From a virus (Duplodnaviria; Heunggongvirae; Uroviricota; Caudoviricetes): a DNA stretch of 9,313 nucleotides. The position numbers and the translations under genes are program-made. Of the stretch, positions 1 to 9,199 are shown piece after piece (within the stretch, counting starts at the first letter, position 1; the number at the start of each line of letters is the position of its first letter). The stretch is from the IMG/VR virus record IMGVR_UViG_2526164634_000020, positions 1-9,313 of that record; one strand, given 5' to 3'. The notes beneath the pieces were generated by a model that ran no database searches, was not told the DNA's origin, and worked only from the letters and a program-made list of their open reading frames with translations.

Positions 1-1514
1 AACGATATTATTCCGGCCGACCACTGCCTGCATGATGTGCAGGATATGAGTACGCTGAATCATCCGAAGGCAGACCTGAGCAAAGGGCAGTACGGCTGTG
101 TCGGCCAGGGCTTACATATTGCCAAAAAACTGCTCCCGTATATCCCGAATAACGCGGGGATCCTGCTGGTACCATGCTGTCGTGGTGGTTCGGCATTCAC
201 CCAGGGCGCGGAGGGGGACATTCAGTGCGGACACGGGGGCCAGCCAGGATTCGGCACGCTGGGGGGTGGGTAAACCGTTATATCAGGACCTGATTGCGCG
301 CACTAAAGCTGCATTACAGAAGAACCCGAAAAATGTGTTGCTGGCGGTGTGCTGGATGCAGGGAGAGTTTGACATGAGCGCCGCCACCTACGCACAGCAA
401 CCTGCGCTGTTTACAGCCATGCTGAAGCAGTTTCGTGCTGACCTCACTGTGTTTAACGCGCAGTGTCATGGTGGCAGTGCTGTAAATGTGCCGTGGATTT
501 GTGGTGACACGACGTATTACTGGAAAAATACATACGCTACCCAGTACGACACCGTGTACGGCGGGTATAAAAACAGGGAGAGTGAGGGCGTTTATTTTGT
601 GCCCTTCATGACAGACGGTAACGGCGTCAATACCGCCACTAACGCACCGGCAGAAGATCCGGATATTCCGGCATCAGGATATTACGGTGCGGCATCGAGA
701 ACGAATGGAAACCAGGTATCATCAAACCGCCCGACACATTTCAGTTCATGGGCGCGCAGGAGCATTATTCCGGATCGTATGGCAACCGCTATTCTGAACG
801 CAGCCGGGCGCACCTCAGCTTTCATCAGTGGTAAGGCACCGGAAATCAAACCCTCGCCCGGCGTCGACACGCCATCGGGGCCGTCTGAAGATGCATCCGT
901 ACGCACAATCTCCCTGTTGCCGACAGCCGGAGAGGCTGCTGCGCAGGGCTGGACCATTAAGGACGGCGGAATTCAGTTGTCGGGTGGTGTATTTAAGATC
1001 GCCAAGCAGAGCAATAAAACCTGGTCCCTGATGCATCCGGTGGATGACGCAGTCTCCCTGCTGACACGGGGTGGCAGACTGAGCTGTAAGTTTCGACTGT
1101 CAGGCGCACTGACCAACAACCAGTTCGGCCTGGGAATTTATCTGTATACCGATGTAGCGTTACCTGACGTCGTGGCGATGACCGGGACTGGTAACCCGTT
1201 CCTGATGTCGTTCTTCACCCCAGACCACAGACGGCAAACTGAATCTGATGCATCACAAGAAAGCAGGAAACACAAAGTTGGGCGAGTTCGGGAATTACAG
1301 TAATGACTGGCAGACGCTGGAACTGGTGTTCACCGCCGGCAGTGCCACGGTTACTCCGAAACTGAATGGAGTGGCTGGCCCGGCATTCCAGGTCATAAAA
1401 GACAGTCTGACACTGGGGCTGAATGCGCTGACGCTGACGGATATTACCAAAAATGCAGCGTATGGCGTTGAGATAGAAAGTCTGGTGCTGGAGATAAATG
1501 CACCGGCAGCATAA
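1..1514 (+). pseudogene. nanS: Prophage sialate O-acetylesterase, NanS-p-like (SASA/DUF303 family), 5'-partial at window edge, two apparent +1 frameshifts
   Basis: Frame 1 from the window edge reads ...HCLHDVQDM...GQGLHIAKKLLPYIPNNAGILLVPCCRGGSAFTQGAEG; frame 2 continues ...TGASQDSARWGVGKPLYQDLIARTKAALQKNPKNVLLAVCWMQGEFD...PWICGDTTYYWK...TNAPAEDPDIPASGYYG...; I recognise these motifs from E. coli NanS and prophage NanS-p esterases. Frame switches at the G5 run 213-217 and again at the C4 run 1218-1221; the C-terminal part runs in frame 3 to the stop at 1512-1514. ORF-track entries 37..273, 98..1303 and 1248..1514 are pieces of this one gene. Confidence 0.6.
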
Positions 1515-1521
1515 TAAAAAA

Positions 1522-1551
1522 AGCCAGCGCCCACTCTGAAGGACGCTGGCT
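1522..1551 (-). terminator. Hairpin with flanking A/T run, candidate intrinsic terminator (better formed for minus-strand transcription)
   Basis: GCCAGCG (1523-1529) pairs with CGCTGGC (1544-1550), loop about 14 nt; A7 at 1515-1521 becomes a U-run after the stem only on the minus strand; plus-strand side is followed by TAAAAC. Confidence 0.3.
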
Positions 1552-1725
1552 AAAACGGGTAGATGTACTTCACATGATACTTATACTTGGCAGTACATTT
1601 TCTGACAGACAGTGACGGATGATGTCAAGATATTGTGTCATTTATAACCTGAATCAGGGGTGGCCGGAATGTTATCTGGCATTTTTAGCAGAGCCTGAAT
1701 GCCATAATCACGGCTCCCGGCGTTG

Positions 1726-1765
1726 GCCGTCAGTGGGTGACACTGGCGGCTTTTTTGTTTTTCTT
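1726..1765 (+). terminator. Strong rho-independent terminator upstream of the holin gene (tR-prime-like)
   Basis: 10-bp stem GCCGTCAGTG / CACTGGCGGC (one G-U pair), 5-nt loop GGTGA, then TTTTTTGTTTTT; sits 40 bp upstream of S. Confidence 0.55.
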
Positions 1766-1806
1766 TACTTTCATTTTCTGTCGGCGGTGACGGAGACATA
1801 CATCAG

Positions 1807-2013: not shown

Positions 2014-2510
2014 TGTCGCCGTCATTACGCAAGGCTGTTGCTGCTGCTATTGGTGGTGGGGCTGTTGCCATAGCGTCTGTGCTCATCACTGGTCCGAGTG
2101 GTGACGATGGCCTGGAAGGTGTCAGCTACATACCATACGAAGATATCGTTGGCGTATGGACTGTATGTCACGGACACACCGGAAAAGACATCATGCCCGG
2201 TAAAACGTATACCGAAGCAGAATGCAAAGCCCTCCTGAATAAAGACCTTGCCACGGTCGCCAGACAAATAAACCCGTACATCAACGTCGATATACCGGAA
2301 ACAACGCGCGGCGCTCTTTACTCGTTCGTTTACAACGTGGGCGCTGGCAATTTCAGAACATCGACGCTTCTTCGCAAAATAAACCAGGGCGATATCAAAG
2401 GCGCATGTGATCAGCTACGGCGCTGGACATACGCTGGCGGTAAGCAATGGAAAGGGCTGATGACTCGCCGTGAGATTGAGCGTGAAGTCTGTTTGTGGGG
2501 GCAACAATGA
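2013..2510 (+). CDS. R: SAR endolysin, phage-21 R-type lysozyme (165 aa)
   Basis: N-terminal Gly/Ala-rich signal-anchor-release segment [30 protein letters not shown] followed by lysozyme core [21 protein letters not shown]...; immediately follows the pinholin, typical pinholin/SAR-endolysin pairing. Confidence 0.9.
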
Positions 2511-2944
2511 GCAGAGTAACCGCGATTATCTACGTTCTGGTCATCTGCCTCATCGTCTGCCTTTCATGGGCTGTTAATCATTACCGTGATAACGCCATCG
2601 CCTACAAAGAGCAGCGCGATAAAGCCACATCCATCATCGCTGATATGCAGAAGCGGCAACGTGATGTAGCAGAACTTGACGCCAGATACACAAAGGAGCT
2701 TGCTGATGCTAATGCGACTATCGAAAGTCTCCGTGCTGATGTTTCTGCTGGGCGTAAGCGCCTGCAAGTCGCCGCCACCTGTGCAAAGTCAACGACCGGA
2801 GCCAGCGGCATGGGCAATGGAGAAACCCCAGGACTTACAGCAGATGCTGAACTCAATTATTACCGTCTCCGAAGTGGAATCGACAGGATAACCGCGCAGG
2901 TTAACTACTTGCAGGAGTACATTAGGACGCAATGCCTTCGATGA
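2507..2944 (+). CDS. Rz: Rz i-spanin (inner-membrane spanin subunit)
   Basis: ATGA start/stop overlap with R; [34 protein letters not shown]... N-terminal TMD plus coiled-coil periplasmic region, closely lambda-Rz-like. The ORF-track start at 2495 is GTG; ATG 2507 is the more likely start. Confidence 0.85.
2706..2891 (+). CDS. Rz1: Rz1 o-spanin lipoprotein, embedded in the +1 frame of Rz
   Basis: AAGGAG at 2693-2698 about 7 nt before ATG 2706; [20 protein letters not shown] with lipobox VSAC, then proline-rich [13 protein letters not shown] as in lambda Rz1; lies entirely inside Rz. Confidence 0.75.
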
Positions 2945-3016
2945 TAGCGATAATTTTCCCATTATCTTTCATATGCGTGATTTTAGTTAGTTTTAGTCGC
3001 AACACGAATAAAACAG

Positions 3017-3043
3017 AGAACCACCCGCTATACGAGTGGTTCT
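3017..3043. terminator. Bidirectional intrinsic terminator between convergent Rz and the minus-strand small ORF
   Basis: 8-bp stem AGAACCAC / GTGGTTCT with 11-nt loop; T-rich on both sides (plus: GATTTACACTTTTG; minus: CTGTTTTATTCG). Confidence 0.4.
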
Positions 3044-3060
3044 GATTTACACTTTTGAAA

Positions 3061-3291
3061 CTAAAAGCTAAATACTTGAGCAAGAACAGCTAGCGCTGCG
3101 CAAAAAGCAGCCCGTTTATTCCATTTACTTTGTATTTCAATGGCTTTAAAACAACCCAGTGATGAGAAACTGCCTTGTTCCGTTTTTGGTGGGTGTTCTT
3201 TGGAAGATGCAAAACATGAAATAATCCAAAAAATGGCGGAAAAAATTCCAAAAATTATTGAAGGCAAATGATGCTCTTTCAAAAACTCCAT
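3061..3291 (-). CDS. Hypothetical small membrane or lipoprotein-like protein (76 aa), AT-rich accessory gene
   Basis: MEFLKEHHLPSIIFGIFSAIFWIISCFASS...; hydrophobic N-terminal segment ending in a lipobox-like IISC; convergent with Rz and followed on its own strand by the 3017-3043 terminator. No family recognised. Several T homopolymers make the frame fragile. Confidence 0.35.
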   Translation of the reverse strand: MEFLKEHHLPSIIFGIFSAIFWIISCFASSKEHPPKTEQGSFSSLGCFKAIEIQSKWNKRAAFCAALAVLAQVFSF

Positions 3292-3903
3292 GACTTAACT
3301 CTCTTAAAAGTTGCTAAACATCGCTCGCAAACAAGAAAGAAAAGTTCTGTTGCGGGCACTCCACAATTTAAACGCCACACAAGCAGCTATTAGGTGGACG
3401 GTTCCAAGATTGCTATCAACTGCCACCCGAATACCGTCAAAACTTGACGTCCAACCAAGAATTATTGAGTTGTAAACTCAACGCAATGATCTGGTTGGTA
3501 TAAATGTGACATATGTCATGAATCGACTAGTTGAGATAGTCAAGATGGGCTTGCTTGACATCATCACCACAACCGGAGCCAACAATGGCAGATTGCGTTA
3601 CCCAGATTTGATAAAGGCATTTTAGCCTGACATAACTATGCACTGTATCGTCGCCGTATTCCCGCATCAACAGAGACCACAGCCCGAGAGGGAGACTCCT
3701 CTGCGCGAGTGTGCGGGGATAATCAAAAACGATACACACCGGGGTTTACCGTGTTAACGGAGCGCGGCGTTGTCCCCTCATGGTCGCTGGTCCGGTGCGA
3801 TGGTGGAAGAAACCGGACGATGTGTTACCTCGCAAGCTCTGTTATGTCATGTGTCTGATTTGTGATTTAAGTCGGATAATTGTCATTGCCATTAAGCAGA
3901 GGA

Positions 3904-3934
3904 TTGATGACCGACAGGGCTGCATTGTTAGAAT
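3904..3934 (+). promoter_or_regulatory. Candidate sigma70 promoter for the TonB_C lipoprotein gene
   Basis: TTGATG (3904-3909), about 19-bp spacer, TAGAAT (3929-3934), roughly 30 nt upstream of ATG 3967; pattern match only. Confidence 0.2.
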
Positions 3935-3966
3935 AAGACTTATTCTTATCTATGCCGGGAATAAAA

Positions 3967-4293
3967 ATGAAAAGAAATCTTCCGTTAATTATTTTGTTGT
4001 CTTCTTTGGTTATGGGCTGTACGCAACATAAAACAGATATGCCTCGACAGTTGGTTAAGGCATTACCACAATATCCGGCCTATGCCGCGGCAAATTATAT
4101 AAAGGGACGGGTTGATGTGAAGTTTGATATTGGTGCTGATGGTACTGTCACCCGAATTGAGTTTATCCGTTCAGAGCCGCACCATCTGTTTGATGAGCAG
4201 GTTGTAAAGGCGATGGCAAAATGGCGATTTGAGAAGGACAAGCCGCGTAAAGGCGTGAAGAAAACATTTATCTTTAGTCCTTCAGCACCCTGA
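3967..4293 (+). CDS. Outer-membrane lipoprotein carrying a stand-alone TonB C-terminal domain (about 108 aa)
   Basis: Signal peptide MKRNLPLIILLSSLVMGC with lipobox and +2 Thr; mature part LPQYPAYAAANYIKGRVDVKFDIGADGTVTRIEFIRSEPHHLFDEQVVKAMAKWRFEKDKP aligns motif for motif with the E. coli TonB C-terminal domain (QYPA..A....G.V.VKFD...DG.V......S.P...F...V..AM..WR.E..KP). The ORF-track start 3952 lacks an RBS; 3967 is preferred. Confidence 0.7.
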   Translation: MKRNLPLIILLSSLVMGCTQHKTDMPRQLVKALPQYPAYAAANYIKGRVDVKFDIGADGTVTRIEFIRSEPHHLFDEQVVKAMAKWRFEKDKPRKGVKKTFIFSPSAP

Positions 4294-4484
4294 TTATTTT
4301 ATCAGAAGTTAATTATCACTCTGTTGCTATTCAGTACATCCCTGCAGGGTAAAGTCTTGTTTCGCCGGATATGAAGATGAAATATTGTTAGAAGACAGTA
4401 GCTACCGGTTCCTGTAACCGAACGTTCATTTCTCGTTATTTTTCATGCTGGCCGGGCGCAGGTGCTTTGCACTGAGAGATCCCC

Positions 4485-5693
4485 TCATAATTTCCCCAAA
4501 GCGTAACCATGTGTGAATAAATTTTGAGCTAGTAGGGTTGCAGCCACGAGTAAGTCTTCCCTTGTTATTGTGTAGCCAGAATGCCGCAAAACTTCCATGC
4601 CTAAGCGAACTGTTGAGAGTACGTTTCGATTTCTGACTGTGTTAGCCTGGAAGTGCTTGTCCCAACCTTGTTTCTGAGCATGAACGCCCGCAAGCCAACA
4701 TGTTAGTTGAAGCATCAGGGCGATTAGCAGCATGATATCAAAACGCTCTGAGCTGCTCGTTCGGCTATGGCGTAGGCCTAGTCCGTAGGCAGGACTTTTC
4801 AAGTCTCGGAAGGTTTCTTCAATCTGCATTCGCTTCGAATAGATATTAACAAGTTGTTTGGGTGTTCGAATTTCAACAGGTAAGTTAGTTGCTAGAACCC
4901 ATGGCTCCTTTGCCGACGCTGAGTAGATTTTAGGTGACGGGTGGTGACAATGAGTCCGTGTCGAGCGCTGATTTTTTCGGCCTTTAGAGCGAGATTTATA
5001 CAATAGAATTTGGCATGAGATTGGATTGCTTTTAGTCAGCCTCTTATAGCCTAAAGTCTTTGAGTGACTAGATGACATATCATGTAAGTTGCTGATAGGT
5101 TTCCAGTTTTCCGCTCCTAGGTCTGCATATTGTACTTTTCCTCTTACTCGACTTAACCAGTACCAACCCAGCTTCTCAACGGATTTATACCATGGCACTT
5201 TAAAGCCAGCATCACTGACAATGAGCGGTGTGGTGTTACTCGGTAGAATGCTCGCAAGGTCGGCTAGAAATTGGTCATGAGCTTTCTTTGAACATTGCTC
5301 TGAAAGCGGGAACGCTTTCTCATAAAGAGTAACAGAACGACCGTGTAGTGCGACTGAAGCTCGCAATACCATAAGTCGTTTTTGCTCACGAATATCAGAC
5401 CAGTCAACAAGTACAATGGGCATCGTATTGCCCGAACAGATAAAGCTAGCATGCCAACGGTATACAGCGAGTCGCTCTTTGTGGAGGTGACGATTACCTA
5501 ACAATCGGTCGATTCGTTTGATGTTATGTTTTGTTCTCGCTTTGGTTGGCAGGTTACGGCCAAGTTCGGTAAGAGTGAGAGTTTTACAGTCAAGTAATGC
5601 GTGGCAAGCCAACGTTAAGCTGTTGAGTCGTTTTAAGTGTAATTCGGGGCAGAATTGGTAAAGAGAGTCGTGTAAAATATCGAGTTCGCACAT
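4485..5693 (-). CDS. tnp: IS10 transposase (402 aa), apparently intact
   Basis: MCELDILHDSLYQFCPELHLKRLNSLTLACHALLDCKTLTLTELGRNLPTKARTKHNIKRIDRLLGNRHL... matches the Tn10/IS10 transposase over its full length. Confidence 0.95.
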   Translation of the reverse strand: MCELDILHDSLYQFCPELHLKRLNSLTLACHALLDCKTLTLTELGRNLPTKARTKHNIKRIDRLLGNRHLHKERLAVYRWHASFICSGNTMPIVLVDWSDIREQKRLMVLRASVALHGRSVTLYEKAFPLSEQCSKKAHDQFLADLASILPSNTTPLIVSDAGFKVPWYKSVEKLGWYWLSRVRGKVQYADLGAENWKPISNLHDMSSSHSKTLGYKRLTKSNPISCQILLYKSRSKGRKNQRSTRTHCHHPSPKIYSASAKEPWVLATNLPVEIRTPKQLVNIYSKRMQIEETFRDLKSPAYGLGLRHSRTSSSERFDIMLLIALMLQLTCWLAGVHAQKQGWDKHFQANTVRNRNVLSTVRLGMEVLRHSGYTITREDLLVAATLLAQNLFTHGYALGKL

Positions 5694-5754
5694 CTTGTTG
5701 TCTGATTATTGATTTTTCGCGAAACCATTTGATCATATGACAAGATGTGTATCC
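5686..5754 (+). ncRNA. IS10 RNA-OUT antisense RNA (region retained in the truncated IS10)
   Basis: Position inferred from remembered IS10 coordinates (pOUT near nt 115 directed toward the outside end); the region contains the long imperfect inverted repeat ACATCTTGTTGTC...GACAAGATGT that forms the RNA-OUT stem. Boundaries approximate. Confidence 0.35.
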
Positions 5755-5844
5755 ACCTTAACGTAAGCGTACAGCCTGAACCGTCTGGTCAGAATCTGAC
5801 GAATTAGACAAAGTGGTGTCCACCAAATAAGTAGTGGGAACCAA

Positions 5845-5908: not shown

Positions 5909-7048
5909 ATGAGCAGAAAAACCCAACGTTACTCTAAAGAGTTCAAAGCCGAAGCTGTCAGAACGGTTCTTGAAAATCAACTTTCGATCAGTGAAGGTGC
6001 TTCCCGATTATCTCTTCCTGAAGGCACTTTAGGACAATGGGTTACCGCCGCCAGAAAAGGGCTCGGTACTCCTGGTTCCCGCACGGTGGCTGAACTGGAA
6101 TCTGAAATTCTGCAACTGCGTAAGGCGTTAAATGAAGCTCGCCTTGAGCGAGATATATTAAATTGCACAGGAGTCGCTGAAAAATACGCGTTAATCGAAC
6201 AATGGCGACAACAATTTCCCATTGAAGCGATGTGTCAGGTATTTGGTGTATCCAGGAGCGGTTATTACAACTGGGTACAGCATGAACCCTCAGACAGAAA
6301 ACAAAGTGATGAGCGGCTAAAACTGGAGATTAAGGTGGCGCATATCCGCACTCGCGAAACATATGGAACCCGGCAGCTCCAGACGGAGCTGGCAGAGAAT
6401 GGCATCATCGTTGGTCGTGACCGACTGGCACGTCTTCGTAAGGAGCTAAGGCTACGCTGTAAGCAGAAACGCAAGTTCAGAGCGACTACGAACTCGAACC
6501 ACAATCTGCCAGTTGCGCCAAATCTGCTGAACCAGACGTTCGCTCCTACAGCACCAAATCAGGTCTGGGTGGCGGACCTGACGTATGTTGCCACACAGGA
6601 GGGATGGTTGTACCTCGCTGGCATCAAAGATGTTTATACGTGCGAAATTGTCGGCTACGCCATGGGAGAGCGCATGACAAAAGAGCTGACAGGTAAAGCC
6701 CTGTTTATGGCGCTCAGGAGCCAGCGCCCACCTGCCGGGCTAATCCACCACTCTGATCGAGGTTCACAGTACTGCGCATACGATTACCGTGTCATACAGG
6801 AGCAGTTTGGTCTGAAAACATCAATGTCGCGTAAAGGTAACTGTTACGACAACGCTCCGATGGAAAGCTTCTGGGGAACGCTGAAAAATGAGAGCCTGAG
6901 CCACTATCGTTTTAATAACCGGGATGAAGCCATCTCAGTAATACGGGAATACATTGAGATTTTCTACAATCGTCAGCGTCGTCACTCTCGTCTGGGGAAT
7001 ATCTCCCCGGCAGCCTTCAGGGAAAAATACCATCAGATGGCTGCTTAA
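5909..7048 (+). CDS. IS3-family transposase, single fused OrfAB-type ORF (379 aa)
   Basis: AAGGAG RBS 7 nt before the ATG; N-terminal HTH (MSRKTQRYSKEFKAEAVRTV...) and leucine zipper (ELESEILQLRKALNEARLERDIL) typical of IS3 OrfA, joined in frame to an rve/DDE core (VWVADLTYV, HHSDRGSQYCA, NAPMESFWGTLKNE, NRQRRHSRLGNISP). Confidence 0.9.
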   Translation: MSRKTQRYSKEFKAEAVRTVLENQLSISEGASRLSLPEGTLGQWVTAARKGLGTPGSRTVAELESEILQLRKALNEARLERDILNCTGVAEKYALIEQWRQQFPIEAMCQVFGVSRSGYYNWVQHEPSDRKQSDERLKLEIKVAHIRTRETYGTRQLQTELAENGIIVGRDRLARLRKELRLRCKQKRKFRATTNSNHNLPVAPNLLNQTFAPTAPNQVWVADLTYVATQEGWLYLAGIKDVYTCEIVGYAMGERMTKELTGKALFMALRSQRPPAGLIHHSDRGSQYCAYDYRVIQEQFGLKTSMSRKGNCYDNAPMESFWGTLKNESLSHYRFNNRDEAISVIREYIEIFYNRQRRHSRLGNISPAAFREKYHQMAA

Positions 7049-7202: not shown

Positions 7203-9199
7203 ATGAGTGAAAATGATACAATCCCAAAGAAGTCTACAAGTCAGATTAACAAAGCGGTATTCTTTACATCTGCTTTGCTAATTTTCCTTCTTGTCGCCTT
7301 TGCCGCCGTATTCCCGGATGTCGCCGACAAAATTTTAAACTACTTCAGCAACAAATCTTCACGAATGCCAGCTGGTTCTACATCCTTGCTGTGGCCCTGA
7401 TTTTACTGAGTGTCACGTTCCTTGGACTCTCACGCTACGGTGATATCAAGCTGGGCCCGGACCATGCGCAGCCTGATTTCGGCCACCACTCCTGGTTTGC
7501 GATGCTTTTTTCGGCAGGGATGGGGATCGGCCTGATGTTCTTTGGCGTTGCCGAACCTGTAATGCATTATCTTTCGCCACCCGTTGGCACTCCAGAAACC
7601 GTTGCGGCAGCTAAGGAAGCAATGCGTCTGACCTTTTTCCACTGGGGACTGCACGCATGGGCAATTTATGCCATTGTGGCGCTGATTCTGGCGTTCTTCA
7701 GTTACCGTCACGGTCTGCCTTTAACTCTGCGCTCCGCACTCTATCCCATTATTGGCGATCGCATATACGGACCTGTAGGACATGCGGTTGATATTTTCGC
7801 TGTTATAGGCACGGTCTTTGGCGTTGCGACATCACTGGGTTACGGTGTTTTGCAGGTGAATGCCGGTTTGAACCATCTTTTCGGGGTGCCCATCAATGAA
7901 ACGGTGCAGGTAATTCTGATCGTGGTCATCACGGGGTTAGCGACGATTTCAGTGGTGTCCGGTCTGGATAAGGGAATACGTATCCTGTCTGAACTCAATC
8001 TGGGTCTGGCTTTGTTGCTCCTGGCGCTGGTCCTGTGTCTGGGACCAACCGTGCTTCTGCTGAAGTCATTTGTGGAAAATACGGGCGGTTATCTTTCGGA
8101 ACTGGTGAGTAAAACGTTCAACCTTTACGCGTATGAGCCCAAGTCGAGCAACTGGCTGGGGGGCTGGACATTACTGTACTGGGGATGGTGGCTTTCATGG
8201 TCGCCGTTTGTGGGGATGTTCATCGCACGGGTCTCCCGCGGGCGAACCATTCGCGAGTTTGTCACCGGCGTGCTGTTTGTTCCCGCGGGTTTTACGCTAA
8301 TGTGGATGACGGTGTTTGGTAACAGCGCGATCTATCTCATTATGAACCAGGGGGCCACAGACCTCGCCAATACTGTTCAGCAGGATGTGGCGCTGGCCCT
8401 GTTTAATTTCCTGGAGCATTTCCCGTTCTCTTCTGTGCTGTCATTCATTGCAATGGCGATGGTCATCGTCTTCTTTGTAACGTCTGCTGATTCGGGGGCA
8501 ATGGTTGTGGATACTCTGGCATCAGGTGGAGTGGCAAACACACCCGTCTGGCAGCGAATATTCTGGGCCTCGCTCATGGGCATTGTTGCAATTGCGCTTC
8601 TCCTTGCCGGAGGGCTAAGTGCGCTGCAAACGGTGACAATAGCGAGTGCATTGCCCTTCTCAGTGATCTTACTAATATCTATATACGGACTTTTAAAAGC
8701 TTTGCGCCGGGATTTGACCAAGCGTGAAAGCCTGAGCATGGCGACAATTGCTCCTACGGCTGCACGTAACCCAATTCCTTGGCAGAGAAGGTTACGCAAT
8801 ATCGCGTATCTGCCGAAGCGATCTCTTGTGAAACGTTTTATGGACGACGTTATCCAGCCCGCCATGACGCTGGTTCAGGAGGAACTGAACAAGCAGGGGA
8901 CGATAAGCCACATTAGTGATGCAGTCGACGATCGTATTCGTCTTGAAGTCGATTTGGGCAACGAGCTGAATTTTATATATGAAGTGAGGCTTCGCGGGTA
9001 TATCTCACCGACCTTCGCGCTCGCCGCAATGGATAATGATGAGCAGCAGACTGAACAACATCGATATTATCGCGCTGAGGTTTATCTCAAAGAAGGCGGT
9101 CAAAATTATGATGTGATGGGCTGGAACCAGGAACAGCTGATTAATGACATACTGGACCAGTACGAAAAACACCTGCACTTCCTGCACCTGGTTCGTTAA
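7203..9199 (+). CDS. BCCT-family transporter, BetT-like choline/betaine transporter, with apparent -1 frameshift near the 5' end (possible pseudogene)
   Basis: BCCT signature WTLLYWGWWLSWSPFVGMFIARVSRGRTIREF; C-terminal cytoplasmic tail resembles BetT. The N-terminus (7203-7355, frame 3: MSENDTIPKK...ADKILNYFSNK) continues as IFTNASWFYILAVALILL... in frame 2; the shift lies at the A3 run 7353-7355. ORF-track entries 7203..7400 and 7391..9199 are one gene. Confidence 0.8.

What the first reader, a model, noticed from the sequence alone, without database searches (positions are those of the whole stretch)
2945..3966. AT-rich accessory islet between Rz and the lipoprotein gene with a convergent small membrane-protein ORF and no assignable function
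About 1 kb of markedly AT-rich DNA follows the lysis cassette where intact lambdoid phages carry bor and then cos/terminase. It contains a 76-aa minus-strand ORF (3061-3291) with a hydrophobic N-terminal segment ending in a lipobox-like IISC, and its own terminator shared convergently with Rz. The remaining roughly 650 bp up to the lipoprotein gene have no ORF above 60 aa. Small hydrophobic proteins in this position are often lysogenic-conversion or exclusion factors, or type I toxin-like peptides. Composition and context suggest horizontally acquired cargo.
Basis: partly seen in the sequence, partly recalled or inferred. Interest (0 to 1): 0.45.

Follow-up and report, generated by a model that had tools for sequence, protein, structure and literature searches.

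The report
Mosaic prophage spacer, one small gene
The 1 kb between the phage lysis genes and the TonB-like lipoprotein gene is a patchwork of recombination scars (a dead terminase fragment, the tail of a rha gene, a widespread 180-nt phage element) plus one real, conserved, uncharacterised small two-helix membrane-protein gene of the ordinary prophage "moron" type.

Summary
The 76-aa minus-strand ORF (3061-3291) and its terminator hairpin (3017-3043) are real. The ORF is a protein-coding gene under purifying selection (dN/dS 0.18 against a Citrobacter homologue). It belongs to a rare family of 75-99-aa two-helix membrane proteins (phrog_14357, function unknown). Family members sit antisense in the lysis-to-terminase gap of prophages.

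The lipobox reading fails, because the Cys is not conserved in the family. No homology was found to Bor, T4 Imm, HK97 gp15 or gp23, or the S21 holin. Function is inferred only: probably a prophage-expressed inner-membrane moron product, perhaps for superinfection exclusion.

The "remaining 650 bp" is not anonymous cargo. It consists of:
- 3318-3592: a Terminase_2 small-subunit pseudogene, also present in P22.
- 3593-3630: the last 13 codons of a rha gene, fused at a 6-nt microhomology.
- 3638-3819: a GC-rich ~180-nt element with discrete ends, matched in about 1,900 of 5,426 E. coli genomes and present in lambda. It shows signs of a plus-strand RNA fold.
- 3820-3966: the upstream region of the TonB-like gene.

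Only the left half is AT-rich. The finding is ordinary overall; the 180-nt element is the most novel loose end.

The parts
2495..2944 (+). Rz spanin gene (context). The embedded Rz1-like lipoprotein ORF lies at 2676-2891. This is the last gene of the holin / SAR-endolysin / Rz lysis cassette.
   Evidence: Pfam Phage_lysis, E 1e-34. 94% identical to P22 gene 15 over 2543-2935.
3017..3043 (.). Bidirectional intrinsic-terminator hairpin. It is strong for the minus-strand ORF76 transcript and weak for plus-strand (late operon) transcripts.
   Evidence: 12-pair stem with 6 GC pairs and a 3-nt loop, then CTGTTTTATT on the minus strand. -19.6 kcal/mol on the minus strand against -13.4 on the plus strand in a 56-nt context.
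3061..3291 (-). ORF76: a real gene for a 76-aa two-helix membrane protein of the phrog_14357 family. It lies antisense to the late operon (a 'reverse moron').
   Evidence: - dN/dS 0.18 against the Citrobacter homologue, with differences by codon position 14/12/26 and an in-frame 1-codon indel.
- Other family pairs give dN/dS of roughly 0.06-0.17 where dS is not saturated.
- It is the only open frame in 6 orthologues.
- An HMM search of 1.84 billion representatives gave 22 hits, nearly all 74-99 aa.
- Invariant W22, Q54, N58, A62.
- phrog_14357, E 1.3e-6.
- AlphaFold2 mean pLDDT 89, helices 2-26 and 44-75.
- PGAP annotates it as WP_157778920.1, hypothetical protein, in E2348/69.
3318..3592 (+). 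terS' pseudogene: the N-terminal ~92 of 187 codons of a Terminase_2-type small terminase subunit. The start codon is lost (ATG to ACA at 3318-3320). Codons ~26-40 are scrambled. There is an in-frame TAA at 3476-3478. The gene is truncated. The last 8 nt (ATGGCAGA, 3585-3592) equal the start of P22 orf80.
   Evidence: - tblastn with the intact Citrobacter terS: 55% identity over aa 17-98, including LNATQAAIR, with a stop.
- 73% DNA identity to L005.
- 83% identity to P22 40757-41021, which carries the same dead terS.
- Start-codon comparison.
- Junction reading.
3593..3630 (+). rha' tail: the last 13 codons plus stop of a Rha-family regulator gene, joined to terS'/orf80' at the 6-nt microhomology GGCAGA (3587-3592).
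   Evidence: 96% identity to E. coli RM10466, where this sequence is the 3' end of an annotated Rha family gene. The window translates as QIALPRFDKGILA*, against QIALPGFDKGISA* for Rha.
3638..3819 (+). A conserved ~180-nt GC-rich non-coding element of lambdoid late regions. It corresponds to lambda 46868-47053 and to the DLP12 bor-ybcV gap. It is either a recombination linker or a plus-strand structured RNA.
   Evidence: - A query of 3600-3966 matched 1,911 of 5,426 E. coli genomes, with up to 9 places per genome, mostly through this stretch.
- The ends are sharp and the flanks vary.
- There is no conserved ORF.
- RNAalifold on 68 variants gave -42.65 kcal/mol on the plus strand and -21.33 on the minus strand.
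- 99.2% of cells pair, and 4 pairs show compensatory change.
- No Rfam hit.
- It is hypervariable among otherwise near-identical prophages.
3820..3966 (+). AT-rich 5' region of the TonB-like lipoprotein gene, with a promoter-like site at 3907-3934 (ATGACC-16-TAGAAT, with a TG extension).
   Evidence: Contiguous with the TonB-family gene at 96% identity in many E. coli prophages. Promoter scan. GC 0.388.
3967..4293 (+). TonB_C-domain lipoprotein gene (context). It is a second, plus-strand accessory gene. Homology to E. coli prophages ends at 4474, where an IS10 copy cuts the prophage off.
   Evidence: Pfam TonB_C, E 2.7e-15. NCBIfam tonB_Cterm. PGAP 'TonB family protein'. Homology end at 4474. 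RNA-OUT at 5686-5755.

Best explanation
The interval is a recombination junction in the accessory ('moron') gap that lambdoid phages keep between the lysis cassette and the packaging genes. It contains one functional unit and several scars.

The functional unit is ORF76 with its terminator. It is a gene antisense to the late operon and encodes a 76-aa helical-hairpin protein. From charge distribution, the protein is inferred to insert in the inner membrane with both ends in the periplasm and a basic 30-aa loop in the cytoplasm.

Its ancestral position, still seen in a Citrobacter prophage and a metagenomic phage, is 19-26 bp divergent from the start of a Terminase_2 terS gene. When the packaging module was replaced, the 5' part of terS stayed attached to it. 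That part then decayed into the pseudogene at 3318-3592. The pseudogene was later joined, at a 6-nt microhomology, to the tail of a rha gene, followed by a common 180-nt element and a TonB-like lipoprotein gene.

Inferred mechanism, not shown: like bor in the same slot of lambda, ORF76 is transcribed from the repressed prophage. During lytic growth it is silenced by convergent late transcription. Its product acts at the inner membrane on a host or incoming-phage component. The most likely activity is superinfection exclusion or blocking of phage entry. I put about 0.3 on that specific activity and about 0.8 on 'real prophage-borne membrane-protein moron plus gene remnants'.
For: That the gene is real:
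- dN/dS of 0.18 against the Citrobacter homologue, and roughly 0.06-0.17 in the other unsaturated family pairs, with third-position excess and an in-frame indel.
- It is the only open frame in six orthologues.
- It belongs to a family of small proteins with invariant W22, Q54, N58, A62.
- It matches phrog_14357.
- AlphaFold2 gives a confident hairpin.
- It is the least polymorphic block among E. coli copies. This is partly biased, because those loci were found by exact protein match.

Moron character:
- It lies on the strand opposite the late operon in E. coli, Citrobacter, Yersinia, Pantoea, Hafnia and a metagenomic phage. In Pseudomonas it is opposite all its immediate neighbours.
- It has its own terminator.
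- Its GC is 0.368, against 0.513 for the lysis genes.
- It is present in only 11 of 5,426 complete E. coli genomes.
- bor occupies the same slot in DLP12.
- P22 has a different antisense ORF plus terminator in the equivalent slot.

Topology: the loop carries 4-7 K/R residues and the N-terminus 0-2, across 20 members.

Scars:
- terS'.
- Independent terS remnants of 26 and about 112 codons lie next to the Pantoea and Hafnia orthologues.
- Intact terS lies next to the gene in L005 and L028.
- The junction sequences.
- The rha tail.
Against: - No sigma-70-like promoter scoring 8 of 12 or better was found within 260 nt upstream of ORF76 in the window. The nearest minus-strand site (3757..3729, 9 of 12) is about 440 nt away. 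Expression in this genome is therefore unproven.
- This copy sits in a decaying, IS-truncated prophage remnant and might be inert.
- The Citrobacter orthologue starts with TTG.
- No cultured phage in INPHARED carries the family, so no biology is attached to it.
- No defence-system model matches.
- The exclusion function rests only on analogy of size, location and orientation.
- Homology to known exclusion proteins was tested and is absent.
Confidence: 0.7

Rival explanations
1. ORF76 is a membrane-damaging toxin: either a type I toxin-like peptide or an abortive-infection effector held in check by antisense late transcription or an unseen antisense RNA.
For: It is small and hydrophobic and lies antisense to a long transcript. 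One distant family member lies three genes upstream of a SAVED-domain protein and a ThiF-like enzyme in an integrative element. The predicted fold is a plain helical hairpin.
Against: - At 76-99 aa with two helices, it is longer than typical type I toxins.
- Polar residues (Q54, N58, Q72, W22) are conserved at fixed positions, which suggests a specific partner rather than nonspecific pore formation.
- No Rfam antisense or toxin-antitoxin RNA family matched at E of 1 or below.
- No PADLOC hit.
- No conserved partner gene appears across contexts.
Confidence: 0.12
2. ORF76 is an accessory of the lysis system, for example an antiholin-like or spanin-modulating membrane protein. This would explain its position next to Rz.
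For: It lies directly after Rz in E. coli, Yersinia and Hafnia, with end-to-end distances from -4 to +116 nt. All enterobacterial contexts except L015 carry a P21-type holin (Phage_holin_2_1).
Against: - It is on the opposite strand, so it cannot be co-transcribed with the lysis genes.
- In Citrobacter, Pantoea and the metagenomic phage it is not adjacent to Rz and is instead tied to terS.
- In Pseudomonas and Methylobacterium it lies away from any lysis genes.
- L015 has the same Rz-ORF76 unit with an unrelated holin and endolysin.
- hhalign probability against the S21-type holin is 2%.
Confidence: 0.07
3. The main function is at the RNA level. The ORF76 mRNA leader, transcribed through the terS start region, acts as an antisense regulator of terminase small-subunit translation. 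The protein is secondary.
For: The start codons of ORF76 and terS are only 19-26 bp apart and divergent in L005 and L028. Remnants in Pantoea and Hafnia lie about 20 bp away. Any ORF76 promoter must therefore lie inside terS, and its leader would be complementary to the terS ribosome-binding site.
Against: The protein itself is under strong purifying selection. The gene is kept where terS is dead or absent (window, Yersinia, Pseudomonas). The promoter has not been located.
Confidence: 0.06
4. One reading: one horizontally acquired AT-rich islet whose 76-aa product is a lipoprotein or exclusion factor, with the rest being anonymous cargo.
For: IISC fits the relaxed lipobox pattern, and the closest homologue has IVSC. 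The left half is AT-rich.
Against: - The Cys is absent from the other 18 aligned members.
- The n-region has one basic and two acidic residues.
- Cleavage would leave a periplasmic peptide that still carries a C-terminal hydrophobic helix.
- The interval is five or more segments, each with its own set of relatives.
- 3638-3819 is GC-rich.
Confidence: 0.04
5. ORF76 is a chance ORF in AT-rich DNA and the annotation is spurious.
For: It is short, has no Pfam or NCBIfam family, has no recognisable promoter, and has only a weak Shine-Dalgarno sequence (AAGAGAG).
Against: See: codon-position bias, family-wide conservation down to about 30% identity, and a confident fold.
Confidence: 0.02

Closest known systems
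phrog_14357 (PHROGs v4, 'unknown function')
   Same: Direct HMM match: window ORF E 1.3e-6, and 16 of 20 family members match with a best E of 1.9e-32. Similar size and two-helix layout.
   Different: Nothing is known about the family. The E. coli / Citrobacter branch has a loop about 7 residues shorter than the 86-aa branch.
Lambda / DLP12 bor (lysogen-expressed moron downstream of Rz)
   Same: Same genomic slot and same orientation: convergent with Rz and antisense to the late operon. Both are small envelope proteins.
   Different: Bor is an outer-membrane lipoprotein (established knowledge). There is no sequence relationship: hhalign probability 0.09%. ORF76 is a two-helix integral membrane protein without a conserved lipobox Cys.
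HK97 gp15 (superinfection-exclusion moron) and gp23 ('reverse moron'); T4 Imm
   Same: These are small phage-encoded proteins made independently of the surrounding operon. gp23 is annotated as a reverse moron with its own terminator. T4 Imm is annotated as a membrane protein. Calling HK97 gp15 a membrane-located exclusion protein rests on my own knowledge; its record says only 'moron product'. They offer a functional analogy.
   Different: No homology: hhalign probabilities are 0.4% (Imm), 0.9% (gp15) and 0.07% (gp23). No Pfam family, Imm_superinfect included, matched any family member.
P22 late-region gap between orf25 and orf80
   Same: It holds the same dead Terminase_2 terS fragment, at 83% DNA identity. 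The fragment ends at the same nucleotide, directly before ATGGCAGA of orf80. P22 also has an antisense small ORF with a terminator just upstream of it.
   Different: The P22 antisense ORF is an unrelated, non-hydrophobic 86-aa protein (phrog_16546). P22 continues into orf80, whereas the window jumps into a rha tail.
Type I toxins (Hok, Ldr, Ibs, Tis-type)
   Same: Small hydrophobic product, with an antisense relationship to another transcript.
   Different: ORF76 is longer and has two helices with conserved polar positions. No matching RNA family was found. Toxicity was not tested.

Membership tests
phrog_14357 small membrane protein family | Significant match to the family HMM | tested here: met
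   E 1.3e-6, residues 3-73 against profile positions 10-87 of 90. An independent profile search recovers the same family.
phrog_14357 small membrane protein family | Shared architecture: two hydrophobic helices, the FW motif in helix 1, and Q-x-K-W/Y-N-x-x-A-A at the start of helix 2 | tested here: met
   Alignment A2: invariant W22, Q54, N58, A62. AlphaFold2 helices 2-26 and 44-75.
Moron (independent transcription unit inserted in a phage operon) | Lies between genes that are adjacent or differently filled in related phages, and is present in some relatives but absent in others | tested here: met
   The Rz-to-terminase gap holds bor/ybcV in DLP12, rha or KilA-N in EHEC prophages, and ORF76 in only 11 of 5,426 genomes.
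Moron (independent transcription unit inserted in a phage operon) | Own transcription terminator | tested here: met
   Hairpin 3043..3017 plus a T-run, 17 nt after the stop codon.
Moron (independent transcription unit inserted in a phage operon) | Own promoter | tested here: inconclusive
   No site scoring 8 of 12 or better within 260 nt upstream. The nearest minus-strand site is 3757..3729. Retention of 78 nt or more of terS 5' sequence in three lineages suggests the promoter lies there.
Moron (independent transcription unit inserted in a phage operon) | Base composition differing from its neighbours | tested here: met
   GC 0.368, against 0.513 for the lysis cassette.
Moron (independent transcription unit inserted in a phage operon) | Expressed from the repressed prophage | not testable with these tools
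   Needs RNA-seq, tagging or similar in a lysogen.
Bacterial lipoprotein | Lipobox [LVI][ASTVI][GAS]C at the end of the signal peptide | tested here: met
   IISC at residues 23-26. IVSC in the C. sedlakii homologue.
Bacterial lipoprotein | The lipidated Cys is conserved in homologues | tested here: not met
   Cys at this column occurs only in P0001 and P0002 of 20 aligned members. The others have A or S there.
Bacterial lipoprotein | Positively charged n-region before the hydrophobic core | tested here: not met
   MEFLKEHH has one K and two E.
Type I toxin | Single-helix hydrophobic peptide, usually under 60 aa | tested here: not met
   76 aa with two helices.
Type I toxin | Cognate antisense RNA or known toxin-antitoxin RNA family | tested here: inconclusive
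   No Rfam match at E of 1 or below in 2400-4500. An undescribed RNA cannot be excluded.
T4 Imm / HK97 gp15 superinfection-exclusion proteins | Sequence or profile homology | tested here: not met
   hhalign probabilities 0.4% and 0.9%. No Pfam hit for any member.
T4 Imm / HK97 gp15 superinfection-exclusion proteins | Blocks infection by other phages when expressed | not testable with these tools
   Needs plating assays.
Terminase_2 small terminase subunit (for 3318-3592) | N-terminal helix-turn-helix region with the LNATQAAIRAGYS motif | tested here: met
   NLNATQAAIR is present. 55% identity over aa 17-98 of the intact Citrobacter protein.
Terminase_2 small terminase subunit (for 3318-3592) | Complete open reading frame | tested here: not met
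   Start codon is ACA, there is an internal TAA, a stretch is scrambled, and the gene is truncated at about codon 92 of 187. Pfam finds nothing in the fragments. It is therefore a pseudogene.
Lambda Bor | Sequence homology | tested here: not met
   hhalign probability 0.09% against DLP12 Bor.

The most novel reading that the evidence does not exclude
The ~180-nt element at 3638-3819 may be an undescribed structured RNA carried in the late transcript, rather than a passive linker. It is present in about a third of complete E. coli genomes, in up to 9 places per genome, and in phage lambda itself (46868-47053).

The support comes from 68 distinct variants. Their consensus fold is twice as stable on the late-operon strand (-42.65 against -21.33 kcal/mol). 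Common polymorphisms in stems keep pairing in 14 cases against 2. Four pairs show compensatory change.
Probability: 0.25. Interest if true: 0.6.

Novelty: new member of a known kind. Interest (0 to 1): 0.33.

Why it matters
As it stands this is a tidy but ordinary result: a prophage accessory gap dissected into its parts. It still has some uses.

- It shows that RefSeq's 'hypothetical protein' WP_157778920.1 is a real, selected gene in a definable family. That makes it a reasonable candidate for the screens now used to find prophage-encoded exclusion or defence functions.
- It documents a reusable insertion slot, antisense and immediately upstream of Terminase_2 terS. That slot carries different small genes in P22 and in enterobacterial prophages.
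- It explains unannotated DNA in P22 as a dead terS gene.
- It flags a widespread 180-nt element in lambdoid late regions. If that element is a structured RNA, it would be new biology in a very well-studied phage group.

Tried and rejected
- tblastn of ORF76 and of two 86-89-aa family members against 50,697 phage records found no match.
- A genome-contig scan with the two-sequence alignment gave no confirmed relative.
- IMG/VR scans returned only near-identical copies plus the one metagenomic phage already found. A first attempt with the 20-sequence alignment failed for lack of a conserved block.
- Pfam, NCBIfam and PADLOC scans of all 20 members found nothing credible. The single-sequence Pfam hit to Tmemb_14 (E 0.018, below cut-off) was dismissed.
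- PDB sequence search and Foldseek against PDB and BFVD gave only generic helical hairpins, with E of 0.2 or higher. afdb50 was not available.
- hhalign against T4 Imm, HK97 gp15 and gp23, Bor and the S21-type holin was negative in every case.
- Promoter hunting upstream of ORF76 in nine orthologous loci found no conserved sigma-70-like site.
- The 37-aa plus-strand ORF 2932-3045 is conserved only where it overlaps Rz, so it was rejected.
- I tested whether the 180-nt element is a ybcV (DUF1398) remnant and rejected the idea. Only a read-through tail of one annotated gene overlaps it.
- Single-sequence folding of the element is unremarkable, with z-scores of -1.1 and -0.8.
- Literature searches for the protein accession, locus tag or PHROG found no paper.
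- The epsilon34 genome paper and the Pas sRNA preprint do not cover this interval.
- The frameshifted homologue P0003 was disregarded, because its NCTC assembly has many broken neighbouring genes.
Full report
**Setting.** The window is the right end of a lambdoid prophage remnant, followed by insertion sequences and a host gene.
- A frameshifted SASA-type esterase gene occupies 98-1514.
- The lysis cassette follows: a P21-type holin (1807-2013), a phage lysozyme (2013-2510) and Rz (2495-2944) with an embedded Rz1-like ORF.
- Downstream of the finding lies a TonB_C-domain lipoprotein gene (3967-4293).
- Homology to E. coli prophages stops at 4474. Beyond it lie an IS10 copy (IS4-family transposase, RNA-OUT at 5686-5755), an IS3-family element and a split betT.
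- Positions 2900-4000 are 99.5-99.8% identical in 10 complete E. coli genomes, including EPEC E2348/69, and 97.6% in an eleventh.
- In E2348/69, PGAP annotates Rz, a 76-aa hypothetical protein on the opposite strand, a 675-bp gap, a TonB family protein, DUF3950 and a Nu1-type terminase.

**Checking the observation.**
- The hairpin is a good terminator for the minus strand: a 12-pair stem followed by CTGTTTTATT, at -19.6 kcal/mol. It is poor for the plus strand: -13.4 kcal/mol with a broken T-run.
- The AT-richness holds only for 2945-3450 (GC 0.387). 3638-3819 has GC 0.588.
- Two mechanical ORFs above 60 aa do exist in the 'empty' part: 3527..3739 minus and 3780..4031 plus. The 70-aa ORF has no Pfam or PHROG hit. 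The 83-aa ORF, scanned against PHROGs only, has two marginal hits at E about 0.005.

**ORF76 is a real gene.**
- A word-indexed search of 5.8 billion proteins found only three clusters: the E. coli protein itself (586 contigs), a 75-aa Citrobacter sedlakii protein (74% identity) and a frameshifted copy from a low-quality assembly.
- Against the Citrobacter gene, DNA identity is about 73%. Differences fall 14/12/26 on codon positions 1/2/3. There is one in-frame codon indel. dN/dS is 0.18.
- A profile search of 1.84 billion cluster representatives found 22 hits at E of 0.001 or below, nearly all 74-99 aa.
- The 20-member alignment shows two hydrophobic helices and invariant W22, Q54, N58 and A62.
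- Pairs within the 86-aa branch show even stronger third-position excess. Pantoea against Hafnia gives 14/6/42, with dN 0.11 and dS about 2.
- In all six orthologues with DNA available, only the annotated frame is free of stops.
- AlphaFold2 with this alignment gives mean pLDDT 89 and two long helices, 2-26 and 44-75.
- The family matches phrog_14357 ('unknown function') for 16 of 20 members. The window protein scores E 1.3e-6.
- Nothing matches in Pfam, NCBIfam or PADLOC, in PDB sequences or in Foldseek libraries.

**What kind of protein it is.**
- The 30-39-residue loop between the helices carries 4-7 Lys/Arg in every member. The short N-terminus carries 0-2.
- By the positive-inside rule (established knowledge), the loop is cytoplasmic and both termini are periplasmic. 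This is an inference.
The Cys, however, occurs only in the E. coli and C. sedlakii proteins among the 20 aligned members. The n-region has one basic and two acidic residues. The segment is modelled as part of a continuous helix. I therefore reject the lipoprotein reading.
- Profile comparisons with T4 Imm, HK97 gp15 and gp23, DLP12 Bor and the window's own S21-type holin are all negative, with probabilities of 0.07-2.2%.

**Genomic context of the family.**
- In Yersinia and Hafnia the gene lies immediately after Rz and convergent with it.
- In Pantoea it is two genes away from Rz.
- In Citrobacter and in a metagenomic phage contig it lies 26 and 19 bp, respectively, divergent from the start of an intact Terminase_2 terS gene.
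- In all of these contexts it is antisense to the late operon.
- In a Pseudomonas prophage it lies on the strand opposite all its immediate neighbours in the early region.
- Distant members lie in integrative elements. One is three genes upstream of SAVED and ThiF-like genes.
- The exact E. coli protein always sits in the order Rz, ORF76, 675-bp gap, TonB_C. This holds even where the holin and endolysin upstream of Rz are of a different type.
- The ORF segment occurs in only 11 of 5,426 complete E. coli genomes, all at 99.7% identity, and in no cultured phage record.
- The position and orientation are those of bor in DLP12.
- Taken together, this is the signature of a moron, with one gap. I could not find a credible sigma-70 promoter within 260 nt upstream. 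The nearest minus-strand site is 3757..3729.

**The 'empty' 650 bp, segment by segment.**
1. 3318-3592 is a dead Terminase_2 terS.
   - tblastn with the intact Citrobacter protein aligns aa 17-98 at 55% identity, including NLNATQAAIR, with an internal stop.
   - The start codon has become ACA.
   - The gene breaks off at about codon 92 of 187.
   - Pantoea and Hafnia carry independent remnants of 26 and about 112 codons in the same place relative to their ORF76 orthologues.
   - The gene and the 5' end of terS therefore travel together. This is consistent with the ORF76 promoter lying inside terS (an inference).
   - P22 carries the same pseudogene in its unannotated gap at 40744-41021, at 83% DNA identity.
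2. The junction.
   - The window reads ...GGAGCCAACAATGGCAGA|TTGCGTTACCC...
   - P22 reads ...GGAGCCAACAATGGCAGA|GATTATT..., where ATGGCAGAG is the start of orf80.
   - An E. coli Rha gene reads ...GGGGCAGA|TTGCGTTACCC....
   - The window arrangement therefore arose from a P22-like terS'-orf80 arrangement by a crossover with the 3' end of rha at the 6-nt microhomology GGCAGA (3587-3592).
3. 3593-3630 is the last 13 codons and stop of rha.
4. 3638-3819 is a discrete, GC-rich element, described in the next section.
5. 3820-3966 is the AT-rich upstream region that accompanies the TonB-like gene in many prophages. It has a promoter-like site at 3907-3934.

**The 180-nt element.**
- A query of 3600-3966 matched 1,911 of 5,426 E. 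coli genomes, with up to 9 places per genome, mostly through 3638-3819. Annotation under the match was usually 'none'.
- Its ends are sharp. At least six different left flanks and seven different right flanks were seen.
- It always lies in the lysis-to-terminase gap, in the orientation of the late operon, next to varied cargo: rha, KilA-N, ylcI, the TonB-like gene, ybcV.
- It lies between bor and ybcV in K-12 DLP12 and at 46868-47053 in lambda, at 73-78% identity.
- It has no conserved ORF: the consensus ATG frame stops at codon 11. It is not a ybcV remnant.
- Among otherwise near-identical copies of this prophage module it is the most polymorphic block, with 15 variable columns per 100. That pattern fits exchange between prophage copies.
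- On 68 distinct IMG/VR variants, RNAalifold gives -42.65 kcal/mol on the plus strand and -21.33 on the minus strand.
- 99.2% of cells pair. Four pairs have compensatory changes (5 of 500 shuffles reach this). Twelve cells show such changes (0 of 500 shuffles).
- Common stem polymorphisms keep pairing in 14 cases against 2.
- Caveats: the structure was derived from the same alignment; the sequences are related; single-sequence z-scores are unremarkable; and Rfam has no match. I leave it as an unresolved candidate.

**Mechanism, and what is shown versus inferred.**
- Shown: the gene is under selection; the family, the fold and the charge pattern; the antisense position; the terminator; the identities of the remnants; and the junction sequences.
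- Inferred: transcription from the repressed prophage; inner-membrane N-out/C-out insertion; silencing by convergent late transcription; and a role at the envelope.
- I favour superinfection exclusion or interference with a host inner-membrane protein, at about 0.3. The grounds are analogy with other small prophage membrane proteins and the conserved polar residues at helix positions, which suggest a specific partner.
- The alternatives are a toxin, a lysis accessory and an antisense regulator of terS. They are listed under rival explanations with the tests that would separate them.

**Verdict.** However, the 'islet' is a mosaic of scars around one ordinary, though uncharacterised, moron gene. 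That gene is already annotated as hypothetical and already belongs to a PHROG. It is a new member of a known kind, of modest interest. The 180-nt element is the one item that could turn out to be new.

Noticed in passing
window 1515-1806: This is a 290-bp gap between the sialic-acid esterase (SASA) gene and the holin gene. [quoted passage not shown] These are the prophage Hfq-dependent sRNA genes discovered in E2348/69. Rfam found nothing here, and I did not have the Pas sequences to compare.
   Followed up: no
window 98-1514: The SASA / DUF6645 esterase gene is split by a frameshift into two ORFs, 98-1303 and 1248-1514. It is a single 616-aa gene in E. coli prophages. This is further evidence that the prophage is decaying in this genome.
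   Followed up: partly
window 4475-5800: An IS10 copy (IS4-family transposase at 4485-5693 on the minus strand, RNA-OUT antisense RNA at 5686-5755 scoring 98.8 bits) cuts the prophage off 181 bp after the TonB-like gene. Homology to intact prophages ends at 4474.
   Followed up: partly
window 5909-7048 and 7203-9199: An IS3-family transposase reads as a single fused 379-aa ORF. The choline transporter gene betT is split by a frameshift (7203-7400 and 7391-9199). The pattern suggests an IS-rich, pseudogene-rich genome of the Shigella type. The organism was not identified.
   Followed up: no
L003 (P22, BK000583) 1690-2265 = P22 about 40446-41021: The unannotated P22 gap between orf25 and orf80 holds two things. 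One is a dead Terminase_2 terS fragment. The other, just upstream and antisense, is an 86-aa ORF (MSDIEQKIAHLEDI...) with a good Shine-Dalgarno sequence and a strong terminator; it matches phrog_16546 at E 9e-51. The slot antisense to and upstream of terS thus carries different small genes in different phages.
   Followed up: partly
window 3967-4293: The TonB_C-domain lipoprotein (Pfam TonB_C, E 2.7e-15) matches phrog_1267 at E 3.4e-42. PHROGs labels that family 'Rz-like spanin', which is probably a mislabel carried over from its position next to the lysis genes.
   Followed up: no
L029 5001-5252 with 5906-10252: A distant ORF76-family member (83 aa) lies in an integrase-bearing element, three genes upstream of a SAVED-domain protein and a ThiF-like enzyme. 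That resembles a CBASS-like defence neighbourhood. This single case is not evidence of linkage.
   Followed up: no
window 3093 and 3355: These are the only two positions in 2945-3640 where the window differs from all nine E. coli copies compared. 3093 is a synonymous Leu67 change in ORF76 (CTA against TTA). 3355 lies in the terS pseudogene.
   Followed up: yes
window 3507-3518: A perfect 12-bp palindrome, TGACATATGTCA, lies inside the terS pseudogene. It is not palindromic in the Citrobacter intact gene, so it is probably chance.
   Followed up: partly
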